Shown: positions 45,001 through 48,000 of the stretch, one piece after another | How positions within the stretch are numbered: position 1 is the first letter of the stretch | Layout of the letters: each line of letters starts with the position of its first letter | Source: Bradymonadia bacterium | GTDB taxonomy: Bacteria > Myxococcota_A > Bradymonadia > UBA7976 > UBA1532 | Direction of reading: 5' to 3' | DNA: 64,000 nt | Assembly (NCBI GenBank): GCA_046290225.1 | Contig: JBKAGE010000037.1 | Location: forward strand, 32,001-96,000 | Program-made: the position numbers

Positions 45001-48000
45001 GGGGCTGACGCCCTCGCCGAAGAGGTGGGGCAAGGCCTCGGCTTCAGCGTGCAGCGGATGCACAAAAACAAGAAGGATTATGAGCGGTATGGCCGCGGCG
45101 CATGGAAAGGGCTCAATGAGCGCATGCTGGCTCAAGGGCCTGATCGAGTGCTCATTTTCCACCCGGCCATCGAGAAGAGCCGCGGCAGCAAGCACATGGG
45201 CAAGATCGCAGAAGCAGCGGGGGTAGAGGTGCAGGTGTTCAGCGGCTGATCACCTGCACCTCTACGTCGTACCGGAGGTCGGAGTCGAACCGACAAGGCC
45301 ATCACAGCCAACCTGGTTTGAGCAGGCCGCGTTTACCATTTCGCCACTCCGGCAAAAGACACCTCGCCTCTCTGAGAGAGACGAGGCGCCCCGCCCCTGA
45401 TCGTGCACGCCATGGATGAGGCTCGAACTGACACAGCCAGATCGTGCTCTGCACTCGCCACGGCGCATATGCGGAAGAGGAGGGAGTCGAACCCCCAAGG
45501 CTTTTCACAGCTCGACCGGGTTCAAACCGGCTGCCGTCACCTGTCGGCTTGCTCTTCCAGTTGGGCTACGGTGCTCCGGCTTTTGGCTCCGGTGCTCCGG
45601 CCTCATCGCCCGCCATCAGGGCGGCGATCTGGCGCCCAGATGCGGCGCTCCGATCCTCGACGTAGCCTCTGGCTACGCCTGCGGTCGGAACACCACATCT
45701 GAACACCACCTCACCACCCTGCTGACGAGCGCTGCGACCTCCGCACCTCCGCGTGCCCGGCCTGATGTTGGCTCCAGTTTTGTGTTGCTGGAGCCCACGT
45801 TAATCTGGGCCCGTGGACCCTTTGGCTTGTCGTGGATGGGGAGGGAATCGAACCCCCGGGGTGCGTACGCACGGCGGGACTACAAGCCGCCCCGGCCCCC
45901 TACCGGTCTACCCATCCAAAAATGTTCGCCCACAGGGGCTCGGCAGCTCGTCGATGGGTGAGCACCGCGCATGTGCACTCGATCACCAACCAGACGCTGA
46001 GCCCCTGGGCAAAATGTGGACAGGGAGGGAGTCGAACCCACGGGGTGCGTACGCACAGCGGATTTACAGTCCGCTCCGGCCCCCCACCGGACTACCTGTC
46101 CAAAAGGCGCTCATTCACAGGGGTCGAATGACCCCACTCGAACCCAAAGCACATATGTACTTGCCCCGCGGAGGCTCTGGGGCTCGGTGGCTGGCCGGTG
46201 AGTGAGTGTGCAGTCGTGGTGGCAAAAGCGCAGGCGTGGCCGGAGGCCCCGTCGAGCATTTTGACGCCGCGAAAGTACGCTCAATCGCCGGCCAGACGCC
46301 GGGCCCCAGAGCCGGAGCGCCGGAGCAAAAAGTGCGGAGGCGGAGGGATTCGAACCCCCACGACCCTTGCGGGCCCTACCAAGGTAGCAACCTGGCCTCT
46401 TCACCAATTTGAGTACGCCTCCACACAAGGCTGAGCTGTCACGCATCAGTGCCGCGAGCCGGATTCGAACCGGCACGACCAAAGGCGGTCCCCGGGCTCT
46501 CAACCCGGTGTGTCTTCCGTTCCACCACCACGGCAAAAATCAGCGGAAGAGGAGGGAGTCGAACCCCCAAGGCCCTTTCGAGCTCACCCGTATTCGAAAC
46601 GGGCGCCATCACCCATTGGCTTGCTCTTCCGTATGGCTCCAGAGCTTCAGCCATGGAGCACTGTGGACAAGGAGAGAGTCGAACTCCCGAGGTGCGTACG
46701 CACGACGCGTTTACAGCGCGCTCCGGTCCCCTACCGGCCTACCTGTCCTCAAAATGCGGAAGCGGCGGGAGTCGAACCCGCAGTGCCTTTCACGGCACAC
46801 CTGTTTTCCGGACAGGCGCGGCGAACCGATATCCGCCTCGCTTCCAAACATCACACACATGTATCCCACCAGCATGCCGACGCAATACAACCATCTCATC
46901 AACACGCAACATGAAGACGCGATACACACGTGTATCAAACGGCACGCACCTACCATCGCCGCCAGAGATCAGAAGTCAGGAAGTGCCCGGGGTGAGATTC
47001 GAACTCACACGTCCTCACGGACACCGGCTTCTGAGGCCGGCGCGTCTACCAGTTCCGCCACCCGGGCATATGGATCCCCAGCGACGATGGCAGGCACGGC
47101 ACATCGTGAGCACACACCCACAATGCTTTTATTTTCTAAGGCTTATGTGCCCTCACGAGCATCAACCGAGGCACAAAAAAAGCCCCTCGGCAGATGCCTG
47201 AGGGGCTTTCGTGCGAAGACCGGCAGGCCTCAGCTCGAACTCCCCTCGAGGGCACTCAGAAGCAACGACGCGCAATAAGACAGGCGCAAGTCGAGGCTTG
47301 AGAGGCGAGAGTTGGAGGTGTTCGAGATGAAGTGCATGAGAACTATCCCTTGTTGAGTGACTCGAAAGGTAGCGGCATAGTCTGACTGTGTCAAAGACAT
47401 TTTTCACATGACAGTCATTTTTCTATTTCGGCCCACTCTGAGCACACCGACAGTCAGCCACTCGGGCTGTAGTATCCTCAGGGGACCCATATCTCCTCCC
47501 GGATCGCCCAGCGCTCGTGATCACGCCATGCACCATCCAAAAAGAGGTAGCTCTTGGAGTAGCCCTCACGCTCGAAGCCCACCCGCTTCACGAGCTGAAT
47601 CGATCGCATGTTCTCGGGCCGGATGTTGGCCTCAAGACGGTGCAAGCCGATGCGAGAAAACGCCCACTCCAGACAGCTGTGCATCCCCTCCTCCATCTTC
47701 CCTGAACCCGCATGGGGCAAGAAGGCGCCGTAACCCATGTACGCGCTGCGGAACAGGCCCATGGAGATCTGGCTGAGGTTGAACACCCCCGCGGGCTCCC
47801 CTGAGGCCTGATCGATCAACACAAGAGTGCGAAAGGCATCGCTCTGCCGATCGATGAGCAGCTGGAACGCCTCTACCGTACGCGCCGTAGAAAACCAGGG
47901 CCCGTGCAGGGAGACACTGGCCTGCGCCGCCGCGATGAACGCCATCTCGTCTTCAGGCACCAATGGTCGGAGTAGAGTTCTTGCGCTCGAGATCAAATCT

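What a model noticed while it worked through the whole genome (the two positions that open the first line are those of the whole stretch)
45269..47420. Leader-peptide attenuators in front of a second, divergent tRNA set
Besides a normal tRNA set this genome carries about 45 further, strongly divergent tRNA genes in arrays sorted by amino acid, and each of five arrays is preceded by a promoter, a 26-59 codon ORF rich in exactly the amino acids whose tRNAs follow (with many synonymous codons), and an intrinsic terminator. I read these as ribosome-mediated transcription attenuators that sense slow decoding of those codons and then switch on a back-up tRNA array, for instance when the house-keeping tRNAs are depleted or cut by tRNA nucleases. 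Leader-peptide attenuation is known for amino-acid operons and pheST but not for tRNA genes, so this would be a new feedback loop on tRNA supply and a new class of inducib [...]
Evidence so far: Arrays and leaders: C37:77269-79067(-) Leu-CAA,Ser-UGA,Tyr-like,Tyr,Ser-GCU,Leu-GAG,Ser-CGA,Tyr,Ser-GGA,Leu-CAG behind leader g02213 C37:79230-79337(-) (35 aa, 20 of them L,S,Y; proteome 17%; binomial P 1e-7; all six Ser codons are used, no UUA/CUA, just as the array lacks Leu-UAA/UAG) and a GC-rich hairpin plus T7 terminator at C37:79175-79210; C20:227-1226(-) Val,Arg,Lys,Arg,Ile,Val,Arg,Lys,Arg behind g00890 C20:1499-1606(-) (35 aa, 20 V,R,K,I; P 3e-6); C42:92366-93501(-) Gln,Glu,Asp,Gln,Phe,Glu,Asp behind g03098 C42:93743-93841(-) (32 aa, 17 F,D,E,Q; P 3e-5); C79:72099-73132(-) Thr,Thr,Gly,Thr,Gly,Ala,Ala behind an uncalled GTG ORF C79:73494-73673(-) (59 aa, 24 T,A,G; P 0.01); C77:152519- [...]
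(Added by a program. Inside this text positions count along the whole contig: contig position 32,001 is position 1 of the stretch shown here. "Call 12" and the like, gene names such as g00115 and contig names such as C1 are that model's own, and its searches are not shown. The text may have been shortened before it was handed on; [...] marks where a part breaks off. The agent that wrote the report below was given it as the finding of a first reader that could run no searches.)

Follow-up and report, generated by a model that had tools for sequence, protein, structure and literature searches.

The report
Leader-peptide attenuator gating spare tRNA array
A short translated test gene written mostly in leucine, serine and tyrosine codons, wired to a stop/go RNA switch, sits in front of ten spare Leu, Ser and Tyr tRNA genes and probably turns them on when ribosomes read those codons slowly, a control not described for tRNA genes.

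Summary
Window 45269-47067(-) carries ten tRNA genes (3 Leu, 4 Ser, 3 Tyr-type). They lie behind a promoter-like site, a 35-codon ORF (47230-47337) with 20 of 34 residues L/S/Y, and a strong hairpin with a T run (47173-47208). Four more units in this genome have the same build, each leader rich in the amino acids of its own tRNAs. The true leader/array pairing is the best of 120 permutations, and only cognate pairs reach P<1e-4.

In all five, a G-rich run just before the stop codon can pair with the terminator's 5' arm, as in a classical attenuator.

A model built from these modules found relatives in another genus. An orthologous leader there has 7 Arg codons instead of 1, and its array holds two Arg tRNAs. 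A four-Leu array there sits behind a leader with 7 Leu in 8 codons. The same module type also precedes RNA ligase genes in this genome and in a third genus.

Best reading: ribosome-mediated attenuators that feed back on tRNA supply. There is no expression data, and the trigger (tRNA loss, starvation or drugs) is open.

Six literature searches found no such control of tRNA genes. This scan's own unchecked notes report the same idea in at least 71 other genomes.

The parts
47389..47394 (-). -35-like promoter hexamer, preceded by an A/T-rich stretch at about 47398-47429
   Evidence: Read: 6 of 6 match to the sigma-70 -35 consensus. The same hexamer type stands before the other four leaders and before housekeeping tRNA units. 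The consensus scanner did not call it. Inferred, not shown.
47366..47371 (-). -10-like hexamer, 17 bases after the -35-like hexamer
   Evidence: Read. It matches the consensus at 3 of 6 positions, including the second and last, so it falls below the scanner's threshold. Inferred.
47346..47350 (-). Shine-Dalgarno-like purine run, 8 bases before the start codon
   Evidence: Read. Comparable purine runs stand 7-14 bases before the starts of the other leaders.
47230..47337 (-). Leader ORF: 35 codons plus stop, with 20 of 34 residues after the start being Leu, Ser or Tyr
   Evidence: P=3e-8. In one search this reading frame, listed there from an upstream in-frame ATG as a 56-codon ORF, is the only same-strand ORF upstream of the array with strong L/S/Y enrichment (P=5e-7).
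47309..47326 (-). Region 1: early leader codons that pair with region 2 in the untranslated fold
   Evidence: Minimum-free-energy fold (z-score -3.6; 0 of 200 shuffles as stable).
47242..47255 (-). Region 2: G-rich run 9-22 bases before the stop codon, complementary to the terminator's 5' arm (antiterminator half)
   Evidence: Nascent-RNA fold, -37.4 kcal/mol. Duplex -16.0 kcal/mol against a shuffle mean of -10.4, with 21 of 500 shuffles as good. The equivalent run is present in all five leaders.
47208..47239 (-). Spacer hairpin spanning the stop codon, at the tip of the antiterminator
   Evidence: A small hairpin in the same place is seen in the other four modules.
47173..47208 (-). Intrinsic terminator: 12 paired positions with one bulge, a 4-base loop, then seven T
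   Evidence: -21.5 kcal/mol.
46983..47067 (-). tRNA-Leu (anticodon cag)
   Evidence: Rfam tRNA, 60 bits.
46756..46845 (-). tRNA-Ser (gga)
   Evidence: Rfam tRNA, 41.4 bits.
46663..46748 (-). tRNA-Tyr (gta)
   Evidence: Rfam tRNA, 32.7 bits.
46543..46630 (-). tRNA-Ser (cga)
   Evidence: best Rfam match is tRNA-Sec at 41.9 bits, below its cut-off.
46449..46534 (-). tRNA-Leu (gag)
   Evidence: Rfam tRNA, 47.6 bits.
46334..46422 (-). tRNA-Ser (gct)
   Evidence: Rfam tRNA, 54.6 bits.
46167..46326 (.). Copy of a dispersed palindromic repeat of about 165 bases, filling the 232-base gap in the array
   Evidence: 17 BLAST alignments genome-wide (self and partial hits included), up to 81% identity.
46016..46101 (-). 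tRNA-Tyr (gta)
   Evidence: best Rfam match is tRNA-Sec at 42.1 bits.
45832..45917 (-). Tyr-type tRNA, called Thr-tgt by ARAGORN, with one mismatched anticodon-stem pair
   Evidence: 83% identical to the neighbouring Tyr gene.
45582..45753 (.). Second copy of the dispersed repeat, in the 273-base gap
   Evidence: 24 BLAST alignments genome-wide.
45471..45558 (-). tRNA-Ser (tga)
   Evidence: best Rfam match is tRNA-Sec at 45.4 bits.
45269..45353 (-). tRNA-Leu (caa), last gene of the array
   Evidence: Rfam tRNA, 52.3 bits.
45224..45265 (.). 15-pair inverted repeat right after the last tRNA, overlapping the end of the convergent gene; a possible end of the unit
   Evidence: Read. No T run follows it. 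Not tested.

Best explanation
This is a multivalent leader-peptide (ribosome-mediated) transcription attenuator that controls an accessory tRNA operon.

Transcription starts at a sigma-70-type promoter, and a ribosome begins on the 35-codon leader. If Leu, Ser and Tyr codons are read at normal speed, the ribosome reaches the last codons and covers the G-rich region 2 while RNA polymerase makes the terminator. The terminator hairpin then forms and the transcript ends before the tRNAs. If decoding of those codons is slow, because charged cognate tRNA is scarce for any reason, the ribosome lags. Region 2 then pairs with the terminator's 5' arm and polymerase runs on into the ten tRNA genes. More Leu, Ser and Tyr tRNA then speeds up the leader again, which closes a negative feedback loop.

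Four paralogous modules do the same for the V/R/K/I, Q/E/D/F, T/G/A and Trp tRNA units.

Shown by sequence: the parts, their geometry, the composition match, and its co-variation across genera. Inferred: that the promoter fires, that the ORF is translated, that the switch works kinetically, and what the natural trigger is.
For: Composition
- The cognate fraction is 0.41-0.59 on the diagonal for the four multi-gene arrays, against at most 0.19 off it.
- Of 41 same-strand upstream ORFs tested against 6 amino-acid sets, only cognate pairs give P<1e-4.
- The true pairing is the best of 120 permutations.

Specificity
- Among 50 tRNA transcription units, a terminator-like hairpin lies upstream of 10. 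A cognate-rich ORF that the scan scored ends before it at the C20, C37 and C42 arrays. The scan's upstream window was too short for the C79 leader, and the Trp unit was not significant. No unit outside the arrays had such an ORF.

Structure
- All five terminators fold at -18 to -28 kcal/mol.
- In the nascent RNA, all five 5' arms pair with a G-rich run 7-27 bases before the stop (-31.6 to -38.0 kcal/mol).
- The untranslated full-length folds keep the terminator.
- The window leader is unusually structured, z-score -3.6.

Conservation
- Model R1 found G023:C80 at E=1.5e-5.
- That site holds a 32-codon orthologous leader (79 of 99 bases identical; 13 non-synonymous against 1 synonymous change). 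It has 7 Arg instead of 1, before an array that contains two Arg tRNAs. The Asp tRNA is 91% identical to this genome's array Asp.
- A four-Leu array in G023 follows a leader with 7 Leu in 8 codons plus a terminator.
- The terminator stems show 4 pairs changed on both sides.

The tRNAs look functional
- 35 of 36 have 7 of 7 acceptor pairs, and the array Ala genes keep the G3:U70 pair.
Against: - There is no expression, termination or ribosome data.
- At equilibrium the terminator wins for almost every stall position in three of the five leaders, so the switch must be kinetic.
- The duplex between region 2 and the terminator's 5' arm beats shuffles only modestly (14-35 of 500 shuffles as good per leader).
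- The modules are paralogues, so they are not independent cases.
- The consensus scanner called a promoter in only 1 of the 5 loci.
- Enrichment is weak for the T/G/A leader (P=0.013) and for Trp (P=0.04).
- Longer in-frame starts exist for three leaders.
- The terminators in G023:C80, G013 and G021 lack a good T run.
- Codon-level matching has no discriminating power.
- A sixth, C/P/H/M-rich module is decayed.
Confidence: 0.72

Rival explanations
1. The switch is the same, but the natural signal is general translation stress (ribosome-targeting antibiotics, ribosome damage). Any slowdown opens all modules together, and the cognate composition adds little.
For: - The cyanobacterial spare tRNA operon is induced by translation inhibitors (PMC8421152 passages; PMC10272220 abstract).
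- The module before the RNA ligase in this genome uses 18 of the 20 kinds of amino acid, which fits a general sensor.
Against: - A general sensor has no need for each leader to be written in its own array's amino acids.
- It also has no need for an orthologous leader to gain Arg codons when Arg tRNAs are present.
Confidence: 0.1
2. The switch is the same, but it evolved to read amino-acid starvation, as in biosynthetic operons. tRNA output is a side effect, or serves something other than decoding.
For: - The attenuator cannot tell uncharged tRNA from missing tRNA.
- Leader peptides before aminoacyl-tRNA synthetase genes respond to amino-acid supply (PMC8079986 passages; pheST is recalled).
Against: - The amino-acid groups (L/S/Y, V/R/K/I, Q/E/D/F, T/G/A) follow tRNA kinship, not biosynthetic families. 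L, S and Y are the long-variable-arm tRNAs.
- More tRNA does not relieve starvation.
- Linkage to RNA ligase genes points to RNA rather than to amino acids.
Confidence: 0.08
3. There is no regulation. The short ORF and hairpin form an independent small gene, or the end of the upstream unit. The arrays have their own promoters, and the composition match is chance or shared ancestry.
For: - 105-330 bases lie between the terminators and the first tRNAs, which is room for a promoter.
- The promoter scanner is insensitive in this genome.
Against: - The composition match is far beyond chance.
- It shifts with array content between genera while the peptide sequence itself is not conserved: 13 non-synonymous against 1 synonymous change.
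- No promoter-like site was called between any terminator and its array.
- Apart from the array units, no tRNA unit in the genome has such an arrangement.
Confidence: 0.05
4. The arrays are decaying or selfish copies (a mobile-element or phage remnant) and the leaders are relics of no use to the cell.
For: - 40 relatives have 20-63 Rfam tRNA matches, against 86 here.
- Dispersed repeats have inserted into the array.
- One Tyr-type gene has a stem mismatch.
- A sixth module is visibly decayed.
Against: - Acceptor stems and identity elements are intact, and the changes in the Tyr-type copy are compensatory.
- There is an orthologous array and leader in another genus.
- No integrase or transposase was found among 15 neighbouring ORFs.
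- There is no co-linear match in 50,697 phage or 72,556 plasmid records.
- The units are dispersed over five contigs.
Confidence: 0.04

Closest known systems
Leader-peptide attenuators of enterobacterial amino-acid operons (trp, leu, his, thr and the multivalent ilv leaders); recalled from established knowledge
   Same: A short translated leader rich in the relevant codons; an intrinsic terminator; a competing antiterminator whose upstream half is masked by a ribosome that reaches the stop; and a 1:2 pairing when the leader is untranslated. The multivalent ilv and thr leaders also read several amino acids at once.
   Different: The regulated genes are tRNAs, not biosynthetic enzymes. The regulatory codons are spread over the whole ORF (a time-of-flight design) rather than in one tight run, except in the Leu-only leader of G023. 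No Rfam leader family matches.
Leader-peptide attenuators before aminoacyl-tRNA synthetase genes (E. coli pheST, recalled; Streptomyces lividans alaS, thrS and trpS leaders, PMC8079986, passages seen)
   Same: A part of the decoding machinery for an amino acid is controlled by how fast its own codons are read.
   Different: The target there is the charging enzyme for one amino acid. Here the target is the tRNAs themselves, in sets of up to ten genes for three or four amino acids.
Inducible spare tRNA operon (L-array, trn operon) of Anabaena sp. PCC 7120 and its repressor TrcR (PMC8421152, passages; PMC10272220, abstract)
   Same: A second tRNA set beside the housekeeping one, silent by default and switched on when translation is impaired. 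It is co-regulated with an RNA repair ligase gene (rtcB there; an ATP-dependent RNA ligase here).
   Different: There it is one long array of 26 genes on a plasmid, controlled at the promoter by a protein repressor through direct repeats. That paper's main text has no occurrence of 'attenuat', 'leader' or 'terminator'. Here there are five dispersed units sorted by amino acid, each with its own codon-matched RNA switch.
   Same: An RNA ligase deployed when tRNAs are cut. This fits the finding that the same attenuator type precedes RNA ligase genes.
   Different: No end-healing enzyme was recognised beside the ligase here; the two downstream ORFs have no family match. No nuclease was identified either.

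Membership tests
Ribosome-mediated (leader-peptide) transcription attenuator | A short ORF with a ribosome-binding site and start codon, close behind a promoter | tested here: met
   ORF 47230-47337(-) has a purine run 8 bases upstream and promoter-like hexamers 17 bases apart. The same layout is seen in four paralogues. Promoter activity and translation are not shown.
Ribosome-mediated (leader-peptide) transcription attenuator | Regulatory codons for the amino acid(s) tied to the controlled genes are enriched in the leader | tested here: met
   20/34 L/S/Y, P=3e-8. Only cognate pairs reach P<1e-4. The true pairing is best of 120 permutations.
Ribosome-mediated (leader-peptide) transcription attenuator | An intrinsic terminator between the leader and the structural genes | tested here: met
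   A -21.5 kcal/mol hairpin plus seven T, 105 bases before the first tRNA.
Ribosome-mediated (leader-peptide) transcription attenuator | A mutually exclusive antiterminator, placed so that a ribosome at the stop codon masks its upstream half | tested here: met
   Region 2 lies 9-22 bases before the stop and pairs with the 5' arm in the nascent fold in 5 of 5 leaders. Support from shuffles is modest. Between orthologues a single change fits compensation.
Ribosome-mediated (leader-peptide) transcription attenuator | Read-through rises when decoding of the regulatory codons slows | not testable with these tools
   Needs reporters, Term-seq or RNA-seq.
Rfam leader families and T-box riboswitches | A match to a curated covariance model | tested here: not met
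   No leader or T-box family matched at E<=1 in window 44000-48500, nor at E<=0.1 in the 11 other loci.
Long tRNA arrays (L-arrays) with TrcR control | One long array (up to 43 genes) covering many amino acids | tested here: not met
   There are five dispersed units of 1-10 genes, each limited to 1-4 amino acids.
Long tRNA arrays (L-arrays) with TrcR control | Direct-repeat operator over the -10 box and a TrcR repressor | not tested
   I searched for neither the repeats nor a TrcR homologue.

The most novel reading that the evidence does not exclude
This genome carries a modular tRNA-supply regulon. A family of paralogous leader-peptide attenuators is each rewritten in the codons of the tRNAs behind it. 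Together they give codon-specific feedback on an entire second tRNA set.

The same switch also gates an RNA ligase. The whole would then be a response to tRNA damage, for example by anticodon nucleases from competitors or phages: spare, sequence-divergent tRNAs replace the cut ones and the ligase mends them.

Leaders evolve by recoding whenever tRNA genes join or leave an array.
Probability: 0.35. Interest if true: 0.9.

Novelty: new variant of a known kind. Interest (0 to 1): 0.82.

Why it matters
Bacterial tRNA genes are usually taken to be controlled only at the promoter, by growth rate and the stringent response. A switch that reads the speed of decoding of particular codons and answers by making the matching tRNAs would be a direct, isoacceptor-group-specific feedback on tRNA supply.

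It would also explain why some genomes keep a second, divergent tRNA set, and how that set stays silent until it is needed. It gives a testable link between spare tRNAs, RNA repair and tRNA-targeting toxins.

The modules are compact, self-contained sensors of codon-specific translation speed, which could serve as reporters.

The between-genus comparison shows something rare for leader peptides. The selected property is amino-acid composition matched to the downstream genes, not peptide sequence.

Tried and rejected
Searches for relatives of the window locus
- The leader DNA has no match in 40 relatives; only the tRNA-Leu part matches.
- A class-wide DNA search (113 genomes) scored only 2 candidates per genome and returned single tRNA hits.
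- Against 50,697 phage and 72,556 plasmid records there were only single-tRNA matches and no co-linear array.
- The leader peptide was too short as a query.
- A metagenome scan with the neighbouring acetyltransferase gave at best 54% identity. 0 of the 42 loci I passed to ARAGORN (of 80 returned) had an array.
- A scan with BioB gave only distant proteobacterial-type matches and no taxonomy.

Counting tRNAs in 150 genomes of the phylum
- Counts saturated at about 30 per genome because only 30 candidates were scored, so the result is uninformative.

Codon-level tests
- The match of leader codons to array anticodons and the spread of synonymous codons had no discriminating power.

Equilibrium stall scan
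- The antiterminator is favoured over many stall positions only in the window leader and the Q/E/D/F leader. I therefore rely on the nascent-RNA folds.

Search for more module copies in this genome with nhmmer
- It returned only the training sequences. The later covariance model R2 added the ligase locus.

Formal covariation for the antiterminator
- The alignment of region 2 is unreliable outside one orthologous pair.

Other R1/R2 hits
- G038, G076, G078, G068, G004, G032, G008, G035 and G023:C98 had no tRNA nearby and were not pursued.
- The upstream region of the Pro array in G023 holds a tandem repeat and no convincing leader.
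Full report
**What is in the window.** ARAGORN finds ten tRNA genes on the minus strand between 45269 and 47067. 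Rfam places all ten in the tRNA clan: six match the tRNA model at 33-60 bits, and four match tRNA-Sec best, below its cut-off, because of their long variable arm. The gene that ARAGORN names Thr-tgt aligns without gaps to the two Tyr genes. It has the same anticodon triplet in the same columns, one mismatched anticodon-stem pair, and acceptor-stem changes that are compensated on both strands. The array is therefore 3 Leu (cag, gag, caa), 4 Ser (gga, cga, gct, tga) and 3 Tyr-type genes, which are exactly the three bacterial tRNA kinds with a long variable arm.

Upstream lie, in order:
- an A/T-rich stretch;
- a -35-like hexamer that matches the consensus fully;
- a -10-like hexamer 17 bases further on;
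- a purine run 8 bases before an ATG;
- a 35-codon ORF (47230-47337);
- a 12-pair hairpin followed by seven T (47173-47208);
- 105 bases of spacer before the first tRNA.

The consensus scanner called neither the promoter nor the bulged terminator.

**The genome.** The assembly has 8.58 Mb, 64.4% G+C and 96 ARAGORN tRNA calls. Outside the arrays there is a nearly complete ordinary set. Array genes are 47-84% identical to the non-array gene with the same anticodon, and more like one another.

35 of the 36 array genes (the five units plus the two tRNA genes at the decayed C42 locus) have 7 of 7 acceptor pairs. The array Ala genes keep the G3:U70 pair, and discriminator bases mostly match the housekeeping ones. 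They look like working tRNAs, not debris.

Forty relatives, from family to class level, have 20-63 Rfam tRNA matches against 86 here.

**Composition test.** Against the composition of long ORFs, the leaders give these counts:
- window leader: 20 of 34 L/S/Y, P=3e-8;
- C20: 20/34 V/R/K/I, P=2e-6;
- C42: 17/31 Q/E/D/F, P=2e-5;
- C79: 24/58 T/G/A, P=0.013;
- C77: 2/25 Trp (adjacent codons), P=0.04.

To avoid picking ORFs by eye, I listed all 41 same-strand ORFs of at least 12 codons in the 500-668 bases upstream of six units and scored each against all six amino-acid sets. Only cognate leader/set pairs fall below 1e-4. The true pairing of five leaders with five arrays scores best of all 120 permutations.

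I also scanned all 50 tRNA transcription units of the genome. Ten have a terminator-like hairpin within 450 bases upstream: the five array units and five others. None of the five others has a cognate-rich ORF ending before the hairpin.

Array tRNAs can read 91-100% of the relevant codons genome-wide, so a match is expected. Synonymous-codon spread exceeds expectation only marginally, and only in the window leader.

**The switch.** All five terminators are strong, at -18 to -28 kcal/mol. The stop codon lies 21-28 bases before the 5' arm, and that gap holds a small hairpin.

I folded the RNA that exists before the 3' arm is made. In all five leaders the C-rich 5' arm pairs with a G-rich run 7-27 bases before the stop codon, enclosing the small hairpin (-31.6 to -38.0 kcal/mol). 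A ribosome standing on the last codons would cover that run.

In the untranslated full-length fold, the run is instead paired with early leader codons and the terminator forms. The window leader is more structured than all 200 shuffles (z-score -3.6). This is the three-state logic of a classical attenuator.

There are caveats:
- At equilibrium the terminator wins for almost all stall positions in three of the five leaders, so the decision must be kinetic.
- The duplex beats mononucleotide shuffles only modestly (14-35 of 500 as good).
- The modules are paralogues (alignments), so they are not independent.

Because the cognate codons are spread along the ORF, the design reads like a race. The summed decoding time of about 20 cognate codons decides whether the ribosome arrives in time.

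**Relatives.** The leader DNA itself has no match in 40 relatives, in phage or plasmid records, or next to homologues of the neighbouring gene in metagenomes.

A covariance model of the 3' parts of the five modules (R1) then found one clear hit among 113 genomes of the class: G023, same family, another genus, E=1.5e-5. That locus carries a promoter-like site, a 32-codon ORF of the same length as this genome's Q/E/D/F leader, the G-rich run, the small hairpin and the terminator stem. Six tRNA genes follow: Asp, Arg-gcg, Arg-ccg, Phe, Gln and Glu.

Its Asp gene is 91% identical to this genome's array Asp, against 66% to any non-array gene. Gln, Phe and Glu are 79-82% identical to array genes. 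The two Arg genes have no close counterpart.

The two leaders share 79 of 99 bases. They differ by 13 non-synonymous changes and 1 synonymous change, and six of the 13 create Arg codons. Arg goes from 1 to 7 of 31 (P=0.005), all of them codons that the two Arg tRNAs read. Gln falls from 4 to 2 as the Gln genes fall from two to one. So the peptide sequence is not conserved, but the match between leader and array is.

The predicted antiterminator there is a 9-pair helix that includes a changed base in the G-rich run. I treat this as one event that fits compensation and no more, since the partner base is the common state in other modules. Terminator stems across six modules show four pairs changed on both sides. 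The T run is poor at this locus.

G023 also has an array of four Leu genes behind a promoter-like site. Its ORF has 7 Leu in 8 consecutive codons (chance per window 7e-7), then a G-rich run and a terminator with a T run.

**An unexpected extension.** A second model built from seven modules (R2) matched 8 of 40 genomes at E<=0.1, counting this one.

Two of the new hits precede protein genes rather than tRNAs:
- In G006 (another genus, E=2e-4), a 33-codon leader in which 13 of 32 residues are L, S or Y, then a G-rich run, a small hairpin and a terminator with nine T, stand before a 348-residue RNA ligase (Pfam PF09414, E=1e-15; PHROG 548, E=7e-62).
- In this genome (C34:31133-31225, E=4e-3), a 52-codon frame using 18 of the 20 kinds of amino acid, then a G-rich run and a terminator very like that of the Trp module, stand before a 363-residue RNA ligase. 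That ligase passes NCBIfam's cut-off for TIGR02306 (219.5 bits against 151.15). My fold of this leader did not show a clear antiterminator, and its start codon is uncertain.

Two ORFs behind this ligase have no family match.

Hits in G013 and G021 (one genus) precede a conserved tRNA-like element with a T arm, about 100 bases long, that neither ARAGORN nor Rfam calls.

An RNA switch family that gates both spare tRNAs and RNA ligases points towards damage to tRNA, or translation stress, as the signal. This is inference.

**Context.** The 15 ORFs I scanned around the window array are ordinary. They include biotin synthase, an aminotransferase, two acetyltransferases, Leu/Phe-tRNA-protein transferase, a DNA methylase and a SLOG-family protein; six have no Pfam match. 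None is an integrase or transposase.

The two long gaps in the array are copies of a dispersed palindromic repeat of about 165 bases. The same repeat sits at the ends of contigs C20 and C24. The two Arg genes on C24 therefore probably continue the V/R/K/I array.

A sixth leader-like ORF at C42:38124-38237 has 20 of 36 residues C/P/H/M/N, the five amino acids not covered elsewhere; this set was chosen post hoc. It is followed by a hairpin without a T run, a Cys-like tRNA seen only by ARAGORN, a nucleoside-hydrolase gene, a tRNA fragment and Pro-ggg. I read it as a decayed module.

**Known work.** Six full-text searches returned no paper that describes a leader-peptide attenuator before tRNA genes.

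The nearest published cases are:
- Leader peptides before synthetase genes: PMC8079986, passages seen.
- The Anabaena spare tRNA operon. It is induced by translational stress through promoter repeats and the repressor TrcR. I saw passages of PMC8421152 and the abstract and outline of PMC10272220. The main text of PMC8421152 has no occurrence of 'attenuat', 'leader' or 'terminator'.

I looked at no supplements. The enterobacterial attenuators, pheST and the T4 tRNA repair system are recalled knowledge.

This scan's own notes, which are AI-written and mostly unchecked, report the same idea in at least 71 other genomes, mainly phages and one planctomycete chromosome. I did not test those.

**Verdict.** It is a new target and a new logic for a known mechanism. 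The trigger is not known.

Noticed in passing
G000 contig C34:31133-31400(-) with the gene at C34:29904-30995(-) (L224, L225); not in the window: A leader/terminator module of the same family (model R2, E=4e-3) stands before an ATP-dependent RNA ligase (TIGR02306, above cut-off). Its 52-codon frame uses 18 of the 20 kinds of amino acid. Two ORFs of unknown family follow the ligase.
   Followed up: partly
G006 contig C62:17730-19000 (L215 1360-2696): A homologous promoter, an L/S-rich 33-codon leader, a G-rich run, a hairpin and a terminator with nine T stand before an RNA ligase (PF09414, PHROG 548). The region looks markedly more A/T-rich than the other loci fetched (by eye, not measured).
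   Followed up: partly
G000 contig C34:374633-375658(+) (L018): Three tandem tRNA-like genes have intact acceptor, D and T arms but a conserved 35-42-base insert in the anticodon loop (Rfam tRNA, 47-52 bits). They lie behind a sigma-54-like promoter motif and are followed by Pro-tgg and Pro-cgg.
   Followed up: partly
G000 contig C44, about 110 bases upstream of tRNA-Asn at 41225: The same sigma-54-like promoter motif precedes an Asn/His tRNA pair. This may be another inducible route for the amino acids not covered by leaders.
   Followed up: no
G000 contig C42:38124-39797(+) (L015): A leader-like ORF rich in C, P, H and M is followed by a hairpin without a T run, a Cys-like tRNA (ARAGORN only), a nucleoside-hydrolase gene (PF01156), a tRNA 3' fragment and Pro-ggg. 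It looks like a decayed sixth module.
   Followed up: partly
window 46167-46326 and 45582-45753: Two copies of a dispersed palindromic repeat of about 165 bases (17 and 24 BLAST alignments genome-wide) fill the long gaps of the array. Copies also sit at the ends of contigs C20, C24 and C18, which probably caused the assembly breaks.
   Followed up: partly
G000 C42:92569-92641 and 93429-93501; G023 C80:44584-44657: Both array tRNA-Asp copies, and the orthologue in G023, are missed by the Rfam tRNA model at the thresholds used. Yet they are 91-99% identical to one another, so this is an atypical but conserved tRNA.
   Followed up: partly
G013 C3:215510-215960 and G021 C18:43310-43760 (L214, L216): A module with a perfectly conserved terminator stem but a variable ORF precedes a conserved tRNA-like element of about 100 bases with a T arm. 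ARAGORN and Rfam do not call it.
   Followed up: partly
G000 contig C14:27995-28067(-): ARAGORN calls a 73-base tRNA with anticodon cta (an amber-reading, 'Pyl'-labelled tRNA) that has a full acceptor stem.
   Followed up: no
window 39654-40349(-): The Leu/Phe-tRNA-protein transferase gene lies about 5 kb from the Leu/Ser/Tyr array. This is probably coincidence.
   Followed up: no
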